IMG/VR virus record: IMGVR_UViG_3300032246_001967
Location: 1 to 64,000 of that record
Origin: a virus
Reading direction: 5' to 3' (one strand)
DNA: 64,000 bases
Shown here: one piece after another, positions 17,067 through 48,174 of the stretch
Numbering within the stretch: the first letter of the stretch is position 1
Layout: each line of letters begins with the position of its first letter
The notes under the pieces: generated by a model
Seen by the model: only the letters and a program-made list of their open reading frames with translations
What the model was told of the DNA's origin: nothing
Database searches by the model: none
Program-made: the position numbers and the translations under genes

Positions 17067-17543
17067 ATGAATGAATGGTTTTCACAAACAGATAGTGACA
17101 GCGGGTTATTAACTAAAAAAACATATTCCTCAATTGAGGATTTCCCAGAAAATACCTTTGGTTTTATTTATATTGTAAAACATAGACCATCAGGTATGTC
17201 TTATATTGGAAAAAAAGTTCTTTACTATAACGTAAAGAAAAAACTAACAAAAAAGGAAATAGCAGAACAAACAGGACCAGGCAGGAAGTCATCCATAAAA
17301 ATGGTAGTAAAAGAATCAGACTGGAAAACTTATTATGGATCTGCTAAACCAATTTTAGAACTCATTAAGGATGGTAAACAAGAGGAATTTACCCGTGAGA
17401 TATTACAATTGGTTCCTAATAAAAAACTTCTTACTTACTATGAATGTAAGTATTTATTTACATATAATGTATTGGAACAACCTGAAGGTTATTTTAATGA
17501 TAACATTTTAGGCAAGTTCTTTTCAAAAGATTTTTTACTTTAA
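17067..17543 (+). CDS. GIY-YIG endonuclease (stand-alone catalytic domain)
   Basis: GFIYIV...SYIGKK, YYGS, FTREIL, E and YFNDNI motifs. Confidence 0.75.
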   Translation: MNEWFSQTDSDSGLLTKKTYSSIEDFPENTFGFIYIVKHRPSGMSYIGKKVLYYNVKKKLTKKEIAEQTGPGRKSSIKMVVKESDWKTYYGSAKPILELIKDGKQEEFTREILQLVPNKKLLTYYECKYLFTYNVLEQPEGYFNDNILGKFFSKDFLL

Positions 17544-17577
17544 TTTTTTTTATTATATTTATAACAAATTAACAATT

Positions 17578-17943
17578 ATGAAAAGACAAATACTTTCTGA
17601 AGAATTCCAGCGTATGCAAAAACTAGCTGGTATAATTACTGAGTCTGAAGATTCTTTTGGTCCTAATAGCATTTCTACATTTGCTAATGAACATTTTGAT
17701 GAAATTCAAAATATGTTTGGTAAACTTCGTGGTGGTAAATTTGAAGGTTTTACAAACAATAGAGGTATTGAAGTAGCATTTATTGGTACTGATGAAGATG
17801 ATGGGATGGATATATCTTTTGATCCTAAATTTGAAGAGATGTCAGACATATATAATGATATAGAACCAGTTGAAATAGCTGGTAAAACAGTTTATGTAAA
17901 TGATTATCTTAATCATAATTTAGATAATGAAGATGAAGATTAA
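17578..17943 (+). CDS. Acidic protein with scaffold-like RMQKLAGI leader; putative internal head protein
   Basis: MKRQILSEEFQRMQKLAGIITE versus scaffold C-terminus RWQKLAGIK. Confidence 0.6.
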   Translation: MKRQILSEEFQRMQKLAGIITESEDSFGPNSISTFANEHFDEIQNMFGKLRGGKFEGFTNNRGIEVAFIGTDEDDGMDISFDPKFEEMSDIYNDIEPVEIAGKTVYVNDYLNHNLDNEDED

Positions 17944-17966: not shown

Positions 17967-17994
17967 AAGCTTGGTTCGCCAAGCTTTCTTTTTT
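17967..17994 (+). terminator. Rho-independent terminator overlapping a TTGG-N19-TATATT promoter
   Basis: AAGCTTGG-TTCG-CCAAGCTT plus T-run; TTGG at 17971, TATATT at 17994. Confidence 0.8.
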
Positions 17995-18022
17995 ATATTA
18001 CGGTTATGTTCAATATTTATGA

Positions 18023-18631
18023 TTGATGGATAAAAAAACTAATATATATTACTTGCATAATGGTGATAATATTCCTTTTTATATAGGAAAAACAGTTCAA
18101 AACCCATCAAAACGATTAAATAATCATAAAAAAGTTTTTGGAAATAATACATTATTAGAAGTTATAGATATAGTTGAAAATAATAATTGGTTATTTTGGG
18201 AAAAACATTATATTTCTTTATTTAAATCTTGGGGTTTTAATCTAGAAAATAAAAATGAAGGTGGAGGAGGATGTATAACTCATGAAGTATCAGAATCTGC
18301 TAGAGAAAAAATAAGTAAAACTCATAAAAATCTTAAAAAACCATTTACTGAGTCTCATAAAATAAACCATCAAAAGTCTTATGAGAACAGAAATGTAACT
18401 TGGGGAAATAAAATATCAGAAGGATTAAAAGGTAGAAAAATAACATGGGAACAAGGAAATGTAGGAAAACCATCTTCACCAATCAACCAATATGATTTAG
18501 AGGGAAATTTTATTAAAAAATGGGATAATATAAAAGATCCTTCTTTAATTTATAAATGTTATATAAGTGGTTGTCTTAAAGGAAGGCAAAAAACAGCCGG
18601 AGGTTATATTTGGAAATATGCAAATAAATGA
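18023..18631 (+). CDS. GIY-YIG homing endonuclease with NUMOD-type C-terminus
   Basis: IYYL...FYIGKT, R..NH, EKHYI, LENKNEGG; QYDLEGNFIKKW...TAGGYIWKY. Confidence 0.85.
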   Translation: MMDKKTNIYYLHNGDNIPFYIGKTVQNPSKRLNNHKKVFGNNTLLEVIDIVENNNWLFWEKHYISLFKSWGFNLENKNEGGGGCITHEVSESAREKISKTHKNLKKPFTESHKINHQKSYENRNVTWGNKISEGLKGRKITWEQGNVGKPSSPINQYDLEGNFIKKWDNIKDPSLIYKCYISGCLKGRQKTAGGYIWKYANK

Positions 18632-38263: not shown

Positions 38264-39841
38264 ATGAGTGAAAATGTAAACTTAAAAGATGTTATAAGAC
38301 AAGAGTACATAAAATGCTTGCAGGACCCTGCTCATTTTATGAAAAAATACTGTAACATCCAGCATCCTCAAAGAGGTAGAGTAATATTTAATCTGTATCC
38401 TTTCCAAGATAAAGTATTAAACCTTTGGAAGGATCATCCTTATTCTATTGTATTAAAATCTAGACAGTTAGGTATTTCTACATTAGCAGCAGGTTATTCT
38501 TTATGGTTAATGTTATTCCATAAAGATAAAAACGTACTTTGTATCGCGACTAAACAAGAAACTGCTCGTAACATGGTTACAAAAGTTAAGTTTATGTTCG
38601 ATAATTTACCTACTTGGCTTAAAATAGGAGCTGAGGAAAATAATAAATTATCATTACGATTAAGTAATGGTTCACAAATTAAAGCCACTTCAGCAAGTAG
38701 TGATGCGGGTCGATCAGAAGCCGTATCTTTACTAATTGTCGATGAGGCAGCGTTTATTGAACAAATTGGTGAGATTTGGGCTTCAGCACAACAAACATTA
38801 GCAACGGGTGGTGGAGCAATTGTGTTATCTACTCCTTATGGTACAGGTAACTGGTTTCATCAAACGTGGGTTAGAGCTGAATCAGGTGAAAATGATTTTT
38901 TACCTATTAAATTACCTTGGTATGTACATCCAGAACGAAATGAAGATTGGAGAAAACGTCAAGATGAATTATTAGGTGATCCTAGATTAGCAGCTCAAGA
39001 ATGTGATTGTGACTTTAATACATCAGGTGATGTAGTATTTTATCCTGAATGGACAGATTTTATTAGAGAAACAACACTTCAAGAACCAATAGAAAGAAGA
39101 GGAGCCGACCAAAATTTATGGGTATGGGAACCTGCAGACTATACAAGAGATTATATAGTAGTAGCAGACGTAGCTAGAGGTGATGGTAAGGATTTCTCAA
39201 CTTTTCATGTAATTGATATTGCAACTAATACACAAGTTGCAGAATATAAAGGGCAAATGTCGCCTAAAGAGTTTGGATACTTTTTAGTTGCTATTGCTAC
39301 TGAATATAATATGGCTCTATTAGTAATAGAAAATGCTTCTATTGGTTGGGCGGCTATTGAATCTGTGTTAGAAAGAGGATATCAGAACACCTATTATTCA
39401 CCTAAGAGTGATAATCTAACAGTTGATTCGTATTTTAATAAGTACGAAAATAGCGATAACGTAACGCCTGGTTTTACTATGTCATTAAGAACACGTCCTT
39501 TAGTAATAAATAAGTTTAGAGAATATGTCGGAGATCGCTCTGTGACTATTAAATCTAAACGTTTATTAGAAGAAATGAAAGTATTCGTTTGGAAAAATGG
39601 ACGTCCAGAAGCACAATCTGGTTATAATGATGATTTAGTTATGCCGTTTGGTATTGCTATGTATTTAAGAGACACATCATTAAAATTTAGACAACAAGCA
39701 CACGATTTATCAAGAGCCACTTTAAGTAATTTTTCAAAAGGAAATACTAGTTTTATAGGAGCCTATAATGCTAATAATGTTCCTAATCCTTATTCCATTG
39801 AAACAAACAGCGGAGTAGAGGACATTAAGTGGTTATTGTAA
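38264..39841 (+). CDS. terL: Terminase large subunit (gp17-like)
   Basis: LYPFQ, KSRQLGIS Walker A, LIVDEAAF Walker B, STPYG, ADVARG.DFS, NDDLVM. Confidence 0.95.
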   Translation: MSENVNLKDVIRQEYIKCLQDPAHFMKKYCNIQHPQRGRVIFNLYPFQDKVLNLWKDHPYSIVLKSRQLGISTLAAGYSLWLMLFHKDKNVLCIATKQETARNMVTKVKFMFDNLPTWLKIGAEENNKLSLRLSNGSQIKATSASSDAGRSEAVSLLIVDEAAFIEQIGEIWASAQQTLATGGGAIVLSTPYGTGNWFHQTWVRAESGENDFLPIKLPWYVHPERNEDWRKRQDELLGDPRLAAQECDCDFNTSGDVVFYPEWTDFIRETTLQEPIERRGADQNLWVWEPADYTRDYIVVADVARGDGKDFSTFHVIDIATNTQVAEYKGQMSPKEFGYFLVAIATEYNMALLVIENASIGWAAIESVLERGYQNTYYSPKSDNLTVDSYFNKYENSDNVTPGFTMSLRTRPLVINKFREYVGDRSVTIKSKRLLEEMKVFVWKNGRPEAQSGYNDDLVMPFGIAMYLRDTSLKFRQQAHDLSRATLSNFSKGNTSFIGAYNANNVPNPYSIETNSGVEDIKWLL

Positions 39842-39859
39842 TATTTATAATATATTTAC

Positions 39860-41737
39860 ATGGCAAACACTAATTTATTCGCTCGTCTACAAAGACTATT
39901 CTCTACTGATGTTATTATCAGAAATCAAGGTGGAAATGAGCTTAAAGTACTAGACGTAGATAGCATCCAAAGATCAGGAGATGTAGCTACAAATTCCTTG
40001 ATGGATAGATATAATAGAATCTATTCACCTGCCGCTTCATCATTATACGGTCAGCAAGTTAATATTAATTATCAATACTTAAGAACCTTCATTTATTCAG
40101 ACTATGATATTATGGATAACGATGCAATTATTGCTTCTGCTCTTGATATCATTTCTGAAGAAGCTACTTTAAGAAATGAAATGGGTGAGGTATTACAAAT
40201 TAGATCTAACGACGAAGATATTCAACAAGTACTTTATAATTTATTTTATGATGTTTTAAATATTGAATTTAATCTATGGTCTTGGATTCGCCAAATGTGT
40301 AAATATGGTGATTTCTTTTTAAAATTAGAAATTGCTGAAAAATATGGTGTTTATAATGTAATTCCTTTTACTGCTTATCATATTGATAGACAGGAAAATT
40401 ATGATAAAGAACATCCAAACGCAGTAAGATTTAAATATTCTCCAGAAGGTATTTATGGTGGTAGTTCAGGTTACTATCCTACACCTAACATGACTGCTCA
40501 AAAAGATGAAAATTTTGTTTATTTTGAAAATTATGAAATGGCTCACTTCCGTTTAATGACGGATGTTAACTATTTACCTTATGGTAGAAGTTATTTAGAA
40601 CCAGCTCGTAGAATTTATAAACAATATGCTTTAATGGAAGATGCTATGTTAATTCATAGAATCTCACGTTCACCTGATAGACGTATTTTTTATATTAATG
40701 TTGGTTCTATTCCTCCTAATGAAGTAGAAAATTTCATGCAGAAAACTATTTCTACAATGAAACGTACTCCATTACAAGATAAACAAACTGGTGAGTATAA
40801 TTTAAAGTATAATATGCAGAACCTTATGGAAGATTTTTATATTCCAATTAGAGGTAATGATCAAACAACTAGAATTGATACTACTCCTGGTTTAGCTTAT
40901 GATGGTATTTCTGACGTTACTTATTTAAGAGATAAACTATTTGCTGCTTTAAAAGTACCTAAAGCGTTTATGGGTTATGATGAAAACTTACAAGGTAAAG
41001 CAACATTAGCAGCAGAAGATATTAGATTTGCTCGCACTATTGATAGATTACAACGTATTGTATTATCAGAATTATATAAAATCGCATTAGTACATTTATA
41101 TACTCAAGGTTACACTGCAGATAATTTAACTAATTTCGAATTATCATTAACTACTCCTTCTATTATTTACGACCAAGAACGTATTGCGTTAATGAAGGAA
41201 AAAATGGATTTAGCAGCCCAAATGATGGAAACCAAATTAATTTCATCAGATTGGATTTACGAAAATATATTCCATTTCAGTCAAGACCAGTATGAAGAAA
41301 TGAGAGATTTAATTGCACAAGACCAAAAACGTACTTTTAGATTTACTCAAATTGCTGAAGAAGGTAATGACCCAGTAGAAACAGGTAAATCTTATGGTAC
41401 ACCACATGATTTAGCTTCATTATATGGTAGAGGTAGATATTCAGCAAATGAATTACCTGATGGATATGATGAAAAAGCTCCTTTAGGTCGCCCTAAAGAA
41501 AAAGTATCAAATATTAATACTCAAGATAATCCATTTGGTAGAGATAGATTAGGTAGAAAAGATATGAAGGTGGATGATCAAGAAGGATATGGCAGACCTA
41601 AAAAAGATGTTTCTCCATTGGCCTTAGAAATAGTAGCTAAAAATAAAACCTTATTAGAATCTTTAGAAAAGAAAATTAATTTTAAAGAAACTGATGATAA
41701 GGAAATACTATTAGATGAATCTAAATTAAAGGAATAA
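39860..41737 (+). CDS. Portal protein (gp20-like)
   Basis: YGRSYLE, LMEDAMLIHRISRSPDRRIFYINVG, EDFYIP, ALKVP; follows terminase. Confidence 0.95.
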   Translation: MANTNLFARLQRLFSTDVIIRNQGGNELKVLDVDSIQRSGDVATNSLMDRYNRIYSPAASSLYGQQVNINYQYLRTFIYSDYDIMDNDAIIASALDIISEEATLRNEMGEVLQIRSNDEDIQQVLYNLFYDVLNIEFNLWSWIRQMCKYGDFFLKLEIAEKYGVYNVIPFTAYHIDRQENYDKEHPNAVRFKYSPEGIYGGSSGYYPTPNMTAQKDENFVYFENYEMAHFRLMTDVNYLPYGRSYLEPARRIYKQYALMEDAMLIHRISRSPDRRIFYINVGSIPPNEVENFMQKTISTMKRTPLQDKQTGEYNLKYNMQNLMEDFYIPIRGNDQTTRIDTTPGLAYDGISDVTYLRDKLFAALKVPKAFMGYDENLQGKATLAAEDIRFARTIDRLQRIVLSELYKIALVHLYTQGYTADNLTNFELSLTTPSIIYDQERIALMKEKMDLAAQMMETKLISSDWIYENIFHFSQDQYEEMRDLIAQDQKRTFRFTQIAEEGNDPVETGKSYGTPHDLASLYGRGRYSANELPDGYDEKAPLGRPKEKVSNINTQDNPFGRDRLGRKDMKVDDQEGYGRPKKDVSPLALEIVAKNKTLLESLEKKINFKETDDKEILLDESKLKE

Positions 41738-44582: not shown

Positions 44583-45188
44583 ATGAAACAAGTATTAATT
44601 GAAACCATACCGTTTAATGTATCACGTACACAATTACATGAGGGTTTAAAAGCTCCTTCGGGTAATCCTTTAGTTGAAGGTATTCTAGCTACAGCTGAAG
44701 TAAAAAATGGTAATGGTCGTTATTATCCAAAAGAGTTATGGGAAAGAGAAATTGACAAATACCAACAAATGGTTAGAGAAAATAGAGCAACAGGTGAATT
44801 AGATCATCCTGAGTCTTCTATTATATCTTTAAAAAACGTATCTCATATTATTAGAGAATGTTGGTGGGACGGAGATAAAGTAATGGGTAAAATAGAAATT
44901 TTACCTACTGTATCTGGTAATATTTTAAAAGCACTTATTGATAATAATGTAACAGTAGGTGTATCATCTCGTGGAATGGGTTCATTAAAACAAATTGGTG
45001 AAGGAACATTAGAAGTACAAGATGATTTTGAATTATTATGCTGGGACTTTGTATCAACCCCATCTAATCCAGGTTCATATATGACGTTAGTTAGAGAAGG
45101 TATTGAAAAACCTACAAATGATTATTCTAAAGTTAATTCTTTATTAACAGAAATCCTTTGTGCTAACGGAACCTGTCCAATATTTTGA
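44583..45188 (+). CDS. Prohead protease (gp21-like)
   Basis: NGNGRYYP, GELDHP, VSH, GVSSRGMGS, DFVSTPS. Confidence 0.95.
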   Translation: MKQVLIETIPFNVSRTQLHEGLKAPSGNPLVEGILATAEVKNGNGRYYPKELWEREIDKYQQMVRENRATGELDHPESSIISLKNVSHIIRECWWDGDKVMGKIEILPTVSGNILKALIDNNVTVGVSSRGMGSLKQIGEGTLEVQDDFELLCWDFVSTPSNPGSYMTLVREGIEKPTNDYSKVNSLLTEILCANGTCPIF

Positions 45189-45246: not shown

Positions 45247-45392
45247 GCGTTTTTGAAATATTTTGATATACGTATACCCGACAATATACGATTTTCTATA
45301 TCGTATTAAGATTTAAAATATCTATTACGCTTCGAGTAATCTATAATAAGCGTACTTCCAACAAAAATTATTTGAGGACAAAAAACAAACAA

Positions 45393-46466
45393 ATGGCAAA
45401 CAGAGACTTATTAAAAGAAGCCATTGCCGATGCTAAAGCTGTTAAGGAAACAGCCATCGCCAATGCAAAAGCTGCTCTTGAAGAAGCTTTTACTCCCATG
45501 CTTCGTGAAAAATTAGCTGCTAAAATAGCTGAAATGGATGAAATGGAAGAAGAAGTTGATTTAAAAGAAGCAGACGAAATGGAAGAAGGTCTTGAAGAAA
45601 CTTACGACAAAACTGATGAAGCTAAAGACATGGATAACATGGAAGAAGCTGAAAAAGTAGATGAAGTAGATCTTGAAGAACTTCTAAGAGAATTAGATGA
45701 ATTAGAAGAAGGTGAAGCGACAGGTGAAGAAGGATTTGGTAAATTTTCTTCAGACGGAACCGAAGGTTTCGATGGTGGAGACGGAGACACACAAGAAAAA
45801 GCATTAGATGAAGCTGAAGGTGAAGAAGATTATGAAGATAAAGATGCAGATGGTGTTGAAGATTCAGAAGATGAAGAAATTGACATCGAAAACATGGACG
45901 AAGATGATCTTAAAAAATTCATTGAAAGTGTAATCGCTGACATGGTTGAATCTGGCGAATTAGAAGCTGGCCATGAAGGTGAAGAAGGTGAAGAGGGAGA
46001 AGAAGGTGAAGAAGATGAAGAAGGTGAAGAAGAAATGAGTATGGATATGATGGCTGAGGTTAAGAAAGCTAAAAAAGATGCTGAAGAATCTAAAAAAGCT
46101 AAAGAAAAAGCTGAAAAAGAGCTTAAAGAAGCTTATGATGCTTTAGAAGCAATTAAAACTGAACTTAACGAAGTTAACTTATTCAACGCTAAATTACTTT
46201 ACACTAACAAAATCTTCAAAGCTAAGAATTTGAACGAATCACAAAAAGTAAAAGTATTAGCTGCTTTTGATAAAGCGGCTAGTGTAAAAGAAGCTAAATT
46301 AGTATTTGAAACTCTATCAGCTGGTTTCAATGAAAAGAAAGCTCCTATGAATGAATCATTAATCCGTGGTGGTGCTTCAAAAGCTGCAGGTGTAGCTACT
46401 AAAAAGCCAATTATGGAAGCTAATGATCAGGTTGCAAGATGGCAAAAATTAGCTGGTATCAAATAA
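45393..46466 (+). CDS. Prohead scaffold protein (gp22-like); likely start ATG 45393
   Basis: Very acidic coiled coil between the protease and MCP; ends RWQKLAGIK. Confidence 0.85.
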   Translation: MANRDLLKEAIADAKAVKETAIANAKAALEEAFTPMLREKLAAKIAEMDEMEEEVDLKEADEMEEGLEETYDKTDEAKDMDNMEEAEKVDEVDLEELLRELDELEEGEATGEEGFGKFSSDGTEGFDGGDGDTQEKALDEAEGEEDYEDKDADGVEDSEDEEIDIENMDEDDLKKFIESVIADMVESGELEAGHEGEEGEEGEEGEEDEEGEEEMSMDMMAEVKKAKKDAEESKKAKEKAEKELKEAYDALEAIKTELNEVNLFNAKLLYTNKIFKAKNLNESQKVKVLAAFDKAASVKEAKLVFETLSAGFNEKKAPMNESLIRGGASKAAGVATKKPIMEANDQVARWQKLAGIK

Positions 46467-46494: not shown

Positions 46495-48174
46495 ATGTCA
46501 CAAGTACAACAACTTTTAGAAAGCGCAGCAGGTTCTTGGAAGAGCATGCAAAGCGACGCAGCCAAATTATCCGGCAAATGGATTAAAACTGGCTTATTAG
46601 AAGGTTTAGGTGAGATTGATAAGAATAACATGTCAATCTTATTAGAAAACCAAGCAAAACAGTTAGTAATGGAATTTAACCAAATCTCTACTAACTCTTA
46701 CTTTACTAGCGGTACTCAAGGTGAAAACTGGGCTGGTATTGCTTTACCATTGGTTCGTAAGGTATTCGGAACTATCGTAGCGAAAGAGTTCGTTTCAGTT
46801 CAACCTATGAACATGCCTTCAGGTCTAGTGTTCTTCTTAGATTTCCAATATGGTAACACTAAGAACCCATTTGCAACTGGTGATTCTTTATATGGTCAAA
46901 GAAACGCTTCTGGTCAGTTCCCATTTGCTACTACTGCCCCTTCAGGTGCTTTATATGGCGCTGGTAAGTTTACTTACTCAACTAACCAAACTTCATCTAC
47001 AGTAGTAACAACTTCAGGTTCTAACATTAGCTCAGCTTCTTTTGCTGATGTTAACTTTGATTCTAATTTCTCAGCTTCTGTAGCTGCTGGTAACATCAAG
47101 AAAATTGCTATCTCTAGTTCAAGAGCTACTAACTTAGTTTCTATGGATTTAGATGCGGTTCGTGGTTTCATCATTACTTCAGGTTCAGTTACTGTTGGTG
47201 CTAACTTACCTCAGTTCTTTACTTATGATTACACTAACGATACTGTAAACTTCTTCGTTTCTGCTTCTACTGCTCAAATCGGTGGTGCTTCTGGTGTTAA
47301 CACTTACACAGTGTTCTACAACAAGTTAACTACTGACCAGTACAGAGGTGACTTTGAAGAATCAAGTTCATACTCAACTCCTAACTCTTTAAGTACTTCA
47401 ACTATCATTATCCCTGAGATCAATGTTAAAATGCAGTCACAAGCTATCACAGCTAAGACTAAGAAGTTAAAAGCTGTTTGGACTCCTGAGTTTGCACAAG
47501 ACTTAGCTGCTTACCAAAACATCGATGCTGAAGCTGAATTAACTAACATCATGAGTGAGTACATTTCAATGGAAATTGATCTTGAAATCTTAGATATGTT
47601 AATTGAAGATGCTGCTGCTGGTACTGAATATTGGTCAGTTGTTAACAACACTGTAATTACTGGTTCTGGTGCTGGAGCTGTTCCTACAACTTTAGCTTCT
47701 GGTTACTACAATACTCAAGGTCAATGGTTCCAAACTTTAGGAACTAAGATCCAAAAGTTAAGTAACAGAATCCACCAGTTAACTTTAAGAGGTGGTGCAA
47801 ACTTCATCGTAACTTCTCCTACAGTTGCTACTGTTCTTGAATCTATCCCAGGATTTGCTTCTACTTCAAACGGTGAAGCTGAACAAATGGAATATGCATT
47901 CGGTGTACAGAAAGTTGGTAGCGTAAACGGTCGTTACAAGGTTTATAAAAACCCTTACTTAACTGAAAACTTAATCTTAATGGGTTACAAAGGATCTCAA
48001 TTCCTTGAGACTGGTGCTGTATTTGCTCCTTATATCCCAATGATTATGACTCCATTAGTGTACGATCCTGATACCTTCACTCCACGTAAAGGTTTATTAA
48101 CTCGTTACGCTAAGAAGATGTTACGTCCTGAATTCTATGCTAAGATCTATGTTAATGGTTTAAACACCATCTAA
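46495..48174 (+). CDS. Major capsid protein (gp23-like)
   Basis: LLENQ, LPLVRKVF, VSVQPM..PSGLVF, KLKAVWTPEFAQDL, APYIP, TPRKGLLTRY. Confidence 0.97.
   Translation: MSQVQQLLESAAGSWKSMQSDAAKLSGKWIKTGLLEGLGEIDKNNMSILLENQAKQLVMEFNQISTNSYFTSGTQGENWAGIALPLVRKVFGTIVAKEFVSVQPMNMPSGLVFFLDFQYGNTKNPFATGDSLYGQRNASGQFPFATTAPSGALYGAGKFTYSTNQTSSTVVTTSGSNISSASFADVNFDSNFSASVAAGNIKKIAISSSRATNLVSMDLDAVRGFIITSGSVTVGANLPQFFTYDYTNDTVNFFVSASTAQIGGASGVNTYTVFYNKLTTDQYRGDFEESSSYSTPNSLSTSTIIIPEINVKMQSQAITAKTKKLKAVWTPEFAQDLAAYQNIDAEAELTNIMSEYISMEIDLEILDMLIEDAAAGTEYWSVVNNTVITGSGAGAVPTTLASGYYNTQGQWFQTLGTKIQKLSNRIHQLTLRGGANFIVTSPTVATVLESIPGFASTSNGEAEQMEYAFGVQKVGSVNGRYKVYKNPYLTENLILMGYKGSQFLETGAVFAPYIPMIMTPLVYDPDTFTPRKGLLTRYAKKMLRPEFYAKIYVNGLNTI

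What the first reader, a model, noticed from the sequence alone, without database searches (positions are those of the whole stretch)
17578..17643. N-terminal leader copies the scaffold's C-terminal motif (RMQKLAGII vs RWQKLAGIK)
Seen: ORF 17578 starts MKRQILSE-EFQRMQKLAGII-TE, and the scaffold ends IME-ANDQVARWQKLAGIK. In 17578 the motif is bracketed by LSE and ITE sites. Established: scaffold C-termini bind coat protein in several tailed phages (e.g. P22). Inference: the motif is a portable capsid-docking tag that is cut off after packaging. The gene has its own late promoter and terminator, like a stand-alone cassette.
Basis: partly seen in the sequence, partly recalled or inferred. Interest (0 to 1): 0.82.

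Follow-up and report, generated by a model that had tools for sequence, protein, structure and literature searches.

The report
Scaffold-tail copy as capsid loading tag
A small gene of this uncultured T4-like water phage starts with a short clip-off peptide that copies the conserved tail of the phage's head-scaffold protein, and relatives put the same peptide on hundreds of unrelated small proteins, so it is probably an address tag for loading proteins into the capsid, though no experiment shows this yet.

Summary
ORF 17578-17943 begins MKRQILSE|EFQRMQKLAGIITE|S, and the scaffold (45372-46466) ends PIME|ANDQVARWQKLAGIK*.

Inside this one genome the match is only weakly significant (rank 5 of 171 C-termini; 21 of 2000 shuffles reach it). 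The case rests on comparison with other phages:
- The tail is kept in all 120 closest scaffold homologues and in distant ones (immuto, Mel-JY01).
- A profile of the leader aligns to a scaffold profile only at its last 15 columns (hhalign E 1e-6).
- The leader profile finds 1292 representative proteins. In the top 150 it sits at the N-terminus of about 80 unrelated bodies and is almost always followed by I/L-x-E, the T4 gp21-type cutting motif.
- The window and 5 of 5 tag-bearing relatives encode an S77 protease.

Best reading: a removable prohead-targeting tag that mimics the scaffold's helix-and-hook tail. It is analogous to the T4 capsid targeting sequence and to 80alpha SP/SaPI1 CpmB tail sharing. 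Packaging and cleavage are inferred.

I found no paper containing the motif. This scan has noted the same phenomenon before on other DNA (e1-5765097, e1-5750166, e1-5750153, e1-5698144). I class it as a new variant of a known kind.

The parts
17556..17568 (+). Promoter-like (or translation-initiation) motif TATTTATAACAAA, 9 nt upstream of the ATG
   Evidence: 24 matches in the window against 8.2 expected; 30 on the + strand and 3 on the - strand in the genome, 20 of 30 within 17 nt of an ATG-ORF start, including the portal gene (39860), 41771 and 43697; the motif (up to 2 mismatches) precedes 12 of 24 tagged genes in IMG/VR loci against 47 of 255 control ORFs.
17578..17643 (+). 22-residue leader MKRQILSE|EFQRMQKLAGIITE|. 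It holds a first L-x-E site (17593-17601), the core motif MQKLAGI (17614-17634) and a second I-x-E site (17635-17643).
   Evidence: Leader profile hits. A low-confidence AF2 model places a helix at residues 8-16 and coil at 17-31.
17644..17943 (+). Acidic 99-residue body of the tagged protein (pI 4.05) plus stop codon. No known family.
   Evidence: No Pfam or PHROG hit. Ten metagenome orthologues. pI. AF2 mean pLDDT 52. No usable Atlas hit.
17967..17996 (+). Intrinsic-terminator-like hairpin AAGCTTGG-TTCG-CCAAGCTT followed by a T-run
   Evidence: 8-bp stem with 4 GC pairs; 2 such sites found in the region against 0.2 expected.
44583..45188 (+). Prohead protease, T4 gp21 family (Peptidase_S77). 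It starts MKQVLIE, like the MNEPQLLIE of T4 gp21.
   Evidence: PF03420, 106.6 bits; phrog_207. T4 gp21 sequence.
45372..46466 (+). Acidic scaffold (gp22-like by position). The true start is probably the ATG at 45393 (MANRDLL...).
   Evidence: Consensus start of the 25 aligned homologues. More than 7900 metagenome homologues of the C-terminal 110 aa. Weak hhalign match to T4 gp22 (E 8.7e-4, probability 23%).
46407..46463 (+). Scaffold tail: a P-I-M-E site (46407-46418), then the 15-residue peptide ANDQVARWQKLAGIK (46419-46463)
   Evidence: An [ILVM]xE site ends exactly 7 residues before the W/M in 173 of 196 scaffolds. AF2 model of the C-terminal 110 aa (pLDDT 78): a 3-helix domain, a disordered linker, then a helix at residues 353-361 followed by GIK.
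46495..48174 (+). Major capsid protein, gp23 family, with a very conserved 60-residue N-terminal region (E60 invariant in 40 sequences)
   Evidence: PF07068, 253 bits. Alignment A1.

Best explanation
ORF 17578 encodes a small acidic protein made with a 22-residue N-terminal address tag. The core of the tag (EFQRMQKLAGII) copies the helix-and-hook peptide that ends the phage's own scaffold protein (QVARWQKLAGIK). Because it looks like that tail, the tag should occupy the same docking site in the assembling prohead, so the protein is co-assembled inside the shell. I think that site is most likely the inner face or N-terminal region of the gp23-like capsid protein; the scaffold core is the other option. 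When the S77 (gp21-like) protease is activated, it cuts after LSE and ITE in the tag and after PIME in the scaffold. That frees the body inside the head and detaches the scaffold.

Shown here: the sequence mimicry, its conservation, its portability, and the presence of fitting sites and of the protease.

Inferred: docking, packaging, cleavage, and any later role of the body, for example ejection into the host.
For: 1. Tail conservation. All 120 nearest scaffold homologues end R[WM]Q.LAGI. Distant scaffolds end SRWQKLAGIIK (immuto), ERMKKLAGIVK (Mel-JY01) and SRMQKLADIS (LR756508).
2. Scaffold identity. 44 of 44 IMG/VR ORFs that end in the motif and have at least 1900 nt downstream are followed by a gp23-like capsid gene.
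3. Mimicry. The only hhalign hit of the leader profile against the scaffold profile is at the extreme C-terminal 15 columns, E 1e-6.
4. Portability.
- In immuto two other proteins, gp083 and gp230, start with the leader.
- 38 leader proteins fall into 28 unrelated body clusters.
- Against 1.84 billion representatives, 1292 proteins match at E<=1e-3.
- In the top 150, 146 carry the motif within the first 30 residues, and 123 bodies fall into 80 clusters.
5. Cut sites. 142 of 146 leaders have [ILVM]xE within 7 residues after LAGx (ITE 96, INE 18, LTE 10, LNE 9), and 141 of 146 have one before it. In scaffolds a site ends exactly 7 residues before the W/M in 173 of 196. T4 gp21 cuts after L/I-X-E (PMC9026906, section 2.5, passage read).
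6. Protease. An S77 protease is present in the window and in 5 of 5 tag-bearing genomes tested.
7. Selection acts on the peptide, not on the DNA. Five Leu codons, four Ala codons and three Gly codons are used among 24 leaders.
8. Shape. AF2 puts a 9-residue helix plus a 3-residue end on a disordered tether in the scaffold. This resembles the 80alpha SP 'helix-and-hook' that binds the capsid protein N-arm (PMC5644958, passages read).
9. Promoter-like motif. The gene shares it with the portal and head genes.
Against: - No binding, packaging or cleavage has been measured for any member.
- Inside this genome alone the resemblance is weak: rank 5 of 171, and 21 of 2000 shuffles reach it.
- Tags are dispensable. 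Eight of 8 genomes picked through their scaffold tail (G002, G004, G005, G011-G015) have no leader hit.
- Bodies are mostly acidic: median pI 4.78, and 76% of 126 lie below 5.5. I recall the T4 internal proteins as basic, so 'DNA-associated ejected cargo' is not a safe transfer from T4.
- [ILVM]xE is common in these acidic proteins (7% per residue). Presence of a site means little; only its fixed position does.
- The AF2 model of ORF 17578 is of low confidence (pLDDT 52).
- The capsid N-terminal region resembles that of T4 gp23, yet the T4 gp22 tail is not significantly like this tail (1321 of 20000 shuffles reach it). This weakens the idea that this conserved capsid region is the partner.
Confidence: 0.68

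Rival explanations
1. The tag works the same way, but its partner is the scaffold core rather than the capsid protein. On this reading the scaffold tail is a scaffold-scaffold (or scaffold-portal/protease) contact, and the leader lets cargo co-polymerise into the core, as T4 internal proteins are said to have affinity for the core.
For: [quoted passage not shown] The capsid N-terminal region is shared with T4 while the scaffold tail is not significantly shared, so the tail may track a clade-specific core partner.
Against: In the solved cases I could read, a scaffold C-terminal helix-and-hook contacts the capsid protein (80alpha SP and CpmB, PMC5644958). The tail sits on a long disordered tether after a folded 3-helix domain, which is a typical reach-out-to-the-shell layout.
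Confidence: 0.25
2. The tagged proteins are not cargo but auxiliary assembly or competitor factors. By occupying scaffold-tail sites they tune scaffold:capsid stoichiometry or head size, as SaPI1 CpmB does with the 80alpha scaffold tail, and they are then degraded or expelled.
For: CpmB shares the scaffold's C-terminal motif and competes for the same capsid site (PMC5644958, passages read). The bodies are acidic like the scaffold itself. Some scaffold-like acidic ORFs carry the motif internally or twice (L109, L025; P0145).
Against: The bodies are extremely diverse (80 clusters among 123), vary from 0 to 6 per genome and are absent from many complete genomes. That pattern fits accessory, arms-race-type genes better than assembly factors. 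The genes lie in the phage itself, not in a satellite.
Confidence: 0.1
3. The shared peptide is a recognition element for the prohead protease (an exosite or degron that recruits substrates), not a docking tag.
For: In both contexts the motif is flanked at fixed distance by protease-type sites.
Against: The capsid protein, which in gp23-type phages is also processed, and the protease itself carry no copy of the motif in the genome-wide profile search. T4 gp21 is described as needing 'very few apparent determinants' beyond L/I-X-E (PMC9026906, passage read).
Confidence: 0.05
4. Chance resemblance, or a generic amphipathic N-terminal helix with no link to the scaffold.
For: The in-genome test is weak.
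Against: Profile-profile hit only at the scaffold's last 15 columns, E 1e-6. Deep conservation at peptide level with free synonymous change. Fixed-position cut sites.
Confidence: 0.02

Closest known systems
Phage T4 capsid targeting sequence (CTS) of internal proteins IPII/IPIII, removed by prohead protease gp21
   Same: A short N-terminal propeptide on otherwise unrelated, fast-evolving small proteins. It ends at an L/I-x-E site. The phage has a gp21-family S77 protease, a gp20-type portal and a gp23-type capsid (PMC9026906 and PMC3012670, passages read).
   Different: There is no sequence likeness: leader profile against the T4 IP that starts MKTYQEFIAE gives E 0.92. This tag is 22 residues with two sites, not 10 with one. 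It is a recognisable copy of the scaffold's C-terminal tail, which the T4 reviews I read do not report for the CTS. Bodies here are mostly acidic.
Staphylococcus phage 80alpha scaffold (SP) and SaPI1 CpmB shared C-terminal 'helix-and-hook' (RIIK motif)
   Same: A second protein carries a copy of the scaffold's C-terminal capsid-binding peptide and so reaches the same site. Both have an amphipathic helix plus a short hydrophobic-hydrophobic-Lys end: 80alpha ends LAEIARQKRIIKN, and tails here end RWQKLAGI(I)K. A predicted helix plus 3-residue end sits on a flexible tether.
   Different: In 80alpha and CpmB the copy is C-terminal and serves size control by a satellite. Here the copy is moved to the N-terminus, made removable by flanking protease sites, and spread over hundreds of unrelated bodies. 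Homology of the two motifs is not established: no PDB sequence hit for the scaffold profile.
phiKZ / 201phi2-1 / SPN3US giant-phage propeptides cleaved by gp21-like proteases
   Same: Many head proteins carry N-terminal propeptides that are cut after Glu by a distant gp21 relative (PMC9026906, section 3.2, passage read).
   Different: Those sites are S/A-x-E, and no common scaffold-derived tag was described in the passages I read.
Nested protease/scaffold genes (lambda C/Nu3, herpesvirus UL26/UL26.5) and encapsulin cargo-loading peptides (recalled, not checked here)
   Same: Cargo or enzyme reaches the shell interior by carrying the same terminal peptide as the scaffold.
   Different: In those systems sharing arises from nested translation of one gene, or the peptide is C-terminal. 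It is not a transplanted N-terminal cassette.

Membership tests
T4-type capsid targeting sequence system | Short N-terminal propeptide shared by otherwise unrelated proteins of one phage lineage | tested here: met
   38 leader proteins fall into 28 body clusters. In the top 150 of 1292 profile hits, 146 are N-terminal and 123 bodies fall into 80 clusters.
T4-type capsid targeting sequence system | Propeptide ends at the prohead-protease motif L/I-x-E | tested here: met
   ITE at residues 20-22 of ORF 17578. 142 of 146 leaders have [ILVM]xE within 7 residues after the motif. This is sequence level only.
T4-type capsid targeting sequence system | Phage encodes a gp21-family (S77) prohead protease | tested here: met
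   PF03420, 106.6 bits against a cut-off of 27. 5 of 5 tag-bearing relatives have one.
T4-type capsid targeting sequence system | Sequence relationship to the T4 CTS itself | tested here: not met
   hhalign of the leader profile against the T4 IP that starts MKTYQEFIAE: E 0.92, 1 aligned column.
T4-type capsid targeting sequence system | Tag is sufficient for packaging into the head and is removed there | not testable with these tools
   Needs virion proteomics or reporter fusions.
Scaffold C-terminal helix-and-hook capsid-binding tail (80alpha SP/CpmB type) | Extreme C-terminal amphipathic helix followed by a short hook, on a flexible tether | tested here: met
   AF2 model of the scaffold's C-terminal 110 aa, pLDDT 78: disordered at model residues 66-98, helix at 99-107 (scaffold residues 353-361), then GIK. 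This is a prediction only.
Scaffold C-terminal helix-and-hook capsid-binding tail (80alpha SP/CpmB type) | Tail contacts the capsid protein N-arm and A/P cleft | not testable with these tools
Scaffold C-terminal helix-and-hook capsid-binding tail (80alpha SP/CpmB type) | Sequence homology to the RIIK motif | tested here: inconclusive
   80alpha ends ...ARQKRIIKN against ...RWQKLAGI(I)K here. The shared QK...IIK is too short to score, and the scaffold profile has no PDB hit.
T4 gp22 prohead core scaffold | Gene lies between the prohead protease and the major capsid protein; acidic, helical protein | tested here: met
   Gene order 44583-45188, 45372-46466, 46495-48174. Same order in T4.
T4 gp22 prohead core scaffold | Detectable sequence homology to T4 gp22 | tested here: inconclusive
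   hhalign E 8.7e-4 with probability 23%, over 51 columns around K[DN]L[TN]ESQK.KV. E 0.0013 with probability 18% for the C-terminal alignment. No Pfam or PHROG hit.

The most novel reading that the evidence does not exclude
In this large clade of uncultured aquatic T4-like phages, the capsid targeting sequence is a transplanted copy of the scaffold's capsid-binding helix-and-hook. Cargo and scaffold would then compete for one site on the capsid protein, with copy number set by that competition. The same logic may underlie the still unexplained T4 CTS, whose key residues 4 and 7 have the same i/i+3 spacing as M13 and L16 here. The hundreds of mostly acidic bodies would be a hidden reservoir of injected anti-defence proteins.
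Probability: 0.3. Interest if true: 0.8.

Novelty: new variant of a known kind. Interest (0 to 1): 0.62.

Why it matters
How T4-type phages address proteins to the inside of the prohead has been open since the CTS was defined. A 2023 review still calls it 'mysterious' (PMC9958956, passage read). Here nature labels the likely answer: the tag is a copy of the scaffold's own tail, so the tag's partner should be whatever the tail binds. That is directly testable with peptides, fusions and prohead cryo-EM in a cultured member (immuto on Flavobacterium sp. LMO8).

The tag also marks more than a thousand protein families of unknown function (1292 representatives) as probable capsid-internal proteins. 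These are candidates for injected anti-defence factors. Finally, it offers a natural packaging tag for engineering phages of Bacteroidota.

Tried and rejected
- Complex prediction of capsid protein (A1) with ORF 17578 (A2): no verdict (score 0.00, controls not run). This is no evidence either way.
- Sequencing-run search: no RNA holder listed.
- AF2 model of ORF 17578: mean pLDDT 52, too poor for a fold search of the body.
- ESM Atlas search of the body: no usable hit by features. Structural neighbours have TM 0.37-0.58 with mixed families, so I did not interpret them.
- Pfam or PHROG searches gave nothing above threshold for ORF 17578, the scaffold and three head-module ORFs. Pfam gave nothing above threshold for ten tagged bodies from IMG/VR.
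- Scaffold profile against PDB sequences: 0 hits.
- Foldseek of the scaffold C-terminal model against BFVD: only 2 hits at E<=0.001, both uncharacterised uncultured-phage proteins.
- Counting LAGI-type DNA patterns in Mel-JY01 and LR756508 gave chance-level numbers. I dropped this.
- T4 gp22 tail against this clade's tails in C-terminal register: not significant (1321 of 20000 shuffles reach it; 25 of 254 internal windows score as high). I keep it only as a lead.
- Covariation of tag and tail within genomes: only seven genomes have both (the window's genome, immuto, G001, G003, G006, G007). There is one suggestive case: G003, tail WQKIAGIK with tags LQKIAGIL and LQKTAGIL. That is too few for a test.
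- Literature:
  - The motif strings QKLAGI, MQKLAG, QQLAGI and RMQKLAGI occur in 0 papers.
  - 'capsid targeting sequence' with 'scaffold' gave 16 papers (14 listed). For most I saw only the listing and the start of the abstract. None of the titles or abstracts describes a scaffold-tail copy.
  - 'Mel-JY01' gave 0 papers.
  - 'immuto' gave 8 papers, none on virion proteins by title or abstract.
  - Supplements were not opened.
Full report
WHAT IS THERE

The window is the first 64 kb of a 128,324-bp, 29% G+C phage genome with all long ORFs on one strand. Its head module is T4-like:
- large terminase, 38264-39841
- gp20-type portal, 39860-41737 (PF07230)
- three ORFs of unknown family
- an S77 prohead protease, 44583-45188 (PF03420, 106.6 bits)
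- a 364-residue acidic ORF, 45372-46466
- a gp23-type capsid protein, 46495-48174 (PF07068)

The acidic ORF matches no Pfam or PHROG family. It sits where T4 has gene 22, and a profile of it matches T4 gp22 weakly (hhalign E 8.7e-4, probability 23%). I call it the scaffold. Its homologues start MANRDLL, so the true start is probably the ATG at 45393.

ORF 17578-17943 (121 aa) starts MKRQILSE-EFQRMQKLAGIITE-SEDS, and the scaffold ends KKPIME-ANDQVARWQKLAGIK. QKLAGI occurs only at these two places in all six frames of the genome.

IS IT MORE THAN CHANCE?

Within this genome alone, barely. I scored each protein's last 14 residues against the first 30 residues of every other ORF. The scaffold ranks 5th of 171, and 21 of 2000 shuffles of its tail do as well. 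The comparative evidence decides the matter.

1. Tail conservation.
- All 120 listed homologues end R[WM]Q[KTQI]LAGI plus 1-4 residues.
- More distant scaffolds keep the tail: SRWQKLAGIIK in Flavobacterium phage immuto (57% identity over that region), ERMKKLAGIVK in Microcystis phage Mel-JY01 and SRMQKLADIS in an uncultured 484-kb phage.

2. The IMG/VR scan.
- 89 lie within 6 residues of the stop of ORFs mostly 300-470 aa long.
- 25 lie within about 25 residues of an ORF start; 24 of these are distinct.
- 8 are other cases. Four are near-C-terminal with a short extension, one is internal in an acidic ORF, one probably uses an alternative start codon, and two look like chance.
- All 44 C-terminal cases with at least 1900 nt downstream are followed by a gp23-like gene.

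3. A test that does not depend on the search pattern. A profile of 25 leaders (A3) was compared with a profile of 25 scaffolds chosen by homology and carrying RWQxLAGI tails (A4). It gave a single hhalign hit: leader residues 6-20 to scaffold residues 350-364, the last 15 of 373 columns, probability 91%, E 1e-6.

4. Peptide-level selection. The conserved residues are encoded by many synonymous codons in both contexts. Selection therefore acts on the peptide and not on a DNA or RNA element.

PORTABILITY

- tblastn of ORF 17578 against 50,697 phage records found only its first 24 residues, in immuto. There they head gp083 and, in a close variant, gp230. The bodies of both are unrelated to ORF 17578.
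- In the metagenome protein search, ten orthologues keep the body. Eight start with the canonical leader (one of these, P0012, behind a short N-terminal extension), one has a variant (MKDLIRMNQLAGIITE...) and one has an unrelated leader. Eight further hits share only the leader.
- 38 leader proteins fall into 28 body clusters at BLASTP E<1e-3.
- The leader profile against 1.84 billion 50%-identity representatives gave 1292 proteins at E<=1e-3 and 115 at E<=1e-10.
- Of the 150 listed, 146 have the motif within the first 30 residues by my regex. Of the other four, two are N-terminal variants, one starts 20 residues further in, and one is internal.
- 123 bodies of at least 40 aa fall into 80 clusters.
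- A few long proteins carry the tag twice: P0144, P0145, P0148 and P0179.
- Ten of the longer bodies have no Pfam family above threshold.
- Bodies are mostly acidic. Median pI is 4.78, and 76% of 126 lie below 5.5, against 45% of 141 ORFs of this genome.

CUT SITES AND PROTEASE

T4 gp21 cuts after Glu in L/I-X-E. The 10-residue CTS of IPIII is removed that way, and residues 4 and 7 matter for targeting (PMC9026906, sections 2.5-2.6, passages read).
- In the leaders, 142 of 146 have [ILVM]xE within 7 residues after LAGx (ITE 96, INE 18, LTE 10, LNE 9). 141 of 146 have such a site before the motif.
- In scaffolds, such a site ends exactly 7 residues before the W/M in 173 of 196. The background density is 7% per residue, so the fixed position is what counts.
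- The window's protease starts MKQVLIE, like the MNEPQLLIE of T4 gp21.
- All 5 tag-bearing genomes tested have one S77 gene above the Pfam cut-off.

SHAPE

AF2 on the scaffold's last 110 residues (41-row alignment, pLDDT 78) gives a confident three-helix domain, a low-confidence linker, then a helix over QVARWQKLA and a non-helical GIK end. The low-confidence model of ORF 17578 (pLDDT 52) also puts a helix over EEFQRMQKL, followed by coil.

This is the layout described for the 80alpha scaffold. There the last 16 residues form an 11-residue amphipathic helix plus a 5-residue hook with the RIIK motif. They bind the capsid N-arm and the A/P cleft, and SaPI1 CpmB uses an almost identical tail (PMC5644958, passages read). 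The 80alpha tail reads ...LAEIARQKRIIKN. Its likeness to ...RWQKLAGIIK is suggestive but too short to test.

DISTRIBUTION

Leader counts per genome with the A3 profile:
- the window's genome: 1
- immuto: 2
- genomes found through a leader: 2 to 6 each (G001 6, G003 3, G006 4, G007 4-5, G008 4, G009 2, G010 2)
- eight genomes found through a scaffold ending MQKLAGI: none

Tags are thus an accessory feature of part of the clade.

In the window's genome, outside the window, ORF 124159-124665 (168 aa, phrog_1987 body of unknown function) ends KMNE-DYQKRQWQHRAGIIK. Nearly all of its 108 homologues end [LM]xE-xF[IV]xxM[KQ]x[RK]AGIIK. hhalign aligns this tail to the leader (E 1.8e-4, probability 48%) and to the scaffold tail (E 0.018, probability 2.6%). 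It is a possible third, C-terminal version of the tag.

GENE CONTEXT

- TATTTATAACAAA lies 9 nt before the ATG.
  - The motif is over-represented: 24 in the window against 8.2 expected.
  - It is strand-specific: 30 on the + strand and 3 on the - strand of the genome.
  - 20 of the 30 + strand copies lie within 17 nt of an ORF start, including the portal gene and two head-module ORFs.
  - With up to 2 mismatches it precedes 12 of 24 tagged genes elsewhere, against 47 of 255 control ORFs.
- A clean terminator hairpin follows the gene.
- Both neighbouring ORFs hit homing-endonuclease PHROGs.

The 'cassette' description therefore fits. 'Late' is inferred from the company the motif keeps.

MECHANISM

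Best reading (0.68): a removable prohead-targeting tag that works by mimicking the scaffold tail. Which partner it binds is open. I put the capsid protein somewhat ahead of the scaffold core, on the 80alpha precedent and the tether geometry. Against that, the capsid N-terminal region is shared with T4 (KW..LLEG, ENQ.K), while the T4 gp22 tail is not significantly similar to this tail.

Other readings score lower: an assembly competitor of the CpmB kind, or a protease exosite. The reasons are given under rival explanations.

COMPARISON WITH WHAT IS KNOWN, AND NOVELTY

The system works like the T4 CTS but is not a sequence relative of it. It works like the 80alpha SP/CpmB tail sharing, except that the copy has been moved to the N-terminus, made cleavable and spread over hundreds of bodies.

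I found no paper containing the motif strings. Nothing in the titles or abstracts of the CTS-plus-scaffold papers describes a scaffold-tail copy. Supplements were closed.

Earlier notes of this scan describe the same phenomenon in other genomes. They are not independent evidence. I reached the same reading before seeing them and tested it here on this genome.

Verdict: a real, ordinary-looking member of a so far unpublished variant of capsid targeting. The mechanism is inferred, not shown.

Noticed in passing
Same genome, outside the window: G000 C1 124159-124665 (L145:1660-2166): A 168-aa protein with a phrog_1987 body ends KMNE|DYQKRQWQHRAGIIK*. Nearly all of its 108 homologues end [LM]xE-xF[IV]xxM[KQ]x[RK]AGIIK*. 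This may be a C-terminal version of the same tag, with Arg/Lys in place of the Leu.
   Followed up: partly
window 17067-17543 and 18023-18631: The tagged gene is flanked on both sides by ORFs that hit homing-endonuclease PHROGs and have GIY-YIG-like starts (...FIYIV...YIGKK; ...IYYLH...YIGKT). This suggests a plastic, mobile-element-rich spot.
   Followed up: no
window 3171, 5616, 14300, 17556, 20334, 33338, 39842, 41749, 43685, 54645, 55309, 60894, 61548, 63298 (+ strand): The motif TATTTATAAYAAA lies -1 to 17 nt before ORF starts, including the portal and head-module genes. It is strand-specific (30 against 3 in the genome). It could be a phage promoter or a translation-initiation signal; timing is unknown.
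   Followed up: partly
window 45372-45393: The scaffold ORF as listed starts at a TTG, but 24 homologues start at the position of the ATG at 45393 (MANRDLL...), so that is probably the true start.
   Followed up: partly
window 46495-46674: The first 60 residues of the capsid protein are very conserved across 40 relatives (K28, W29, G33-G37, L50-K55 and E60 are invariant). They resemble the N-terminal propeptide of T4 gp23 (KW..LLEG, ENQ.K). E60 in QLVME is a likely maturation site.
   Followed up: no
P0144, P0145, P0148, P0179 (metagenome representatives): These long proteins carry the tag twice, at the N-terminus and again internally or near the C-terminus, each followed by I-T-E. They could be polyprotein-like strings of tagged modules or fused gene calls.
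   Followed up: no
P0013, P0014 (orthologues of ORF 17578); G007 C1 136226: The same body occurs with a variant leader (MKDLIRMNQLAGIITEGQAKKMMAILNE) and with an unrelated leader. The variant leader also heads a different body in G007. Leaders and bodies therefore recombine.
   Followed up: no
G003 (L172; L138, L140): The scaffold tail reads WQKIAGIK, and two of the three tags in the same genome read LQKIAGIL and LQKTAGIL. This is one possible case of tag and tail changing together at the Leu position.
   Followed up: no
L025 (11067 and 13322), L022, L141: Some relatives have short acidic ORFs (84-224 aa) that end in the tail motif, in addition to or instead of a long scaffold. L025 holds two motif-bearing ORFs close together.
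   Followed up: no
T4 record, L146 and L147: T4 gp22 starts MLKEQLIAE|A and the T4 CTS is MKTYQEFIAE|A. The two N-termini look somewhat alike ([LF]-IAE-A). I did not test the significance.
   Followed up: no
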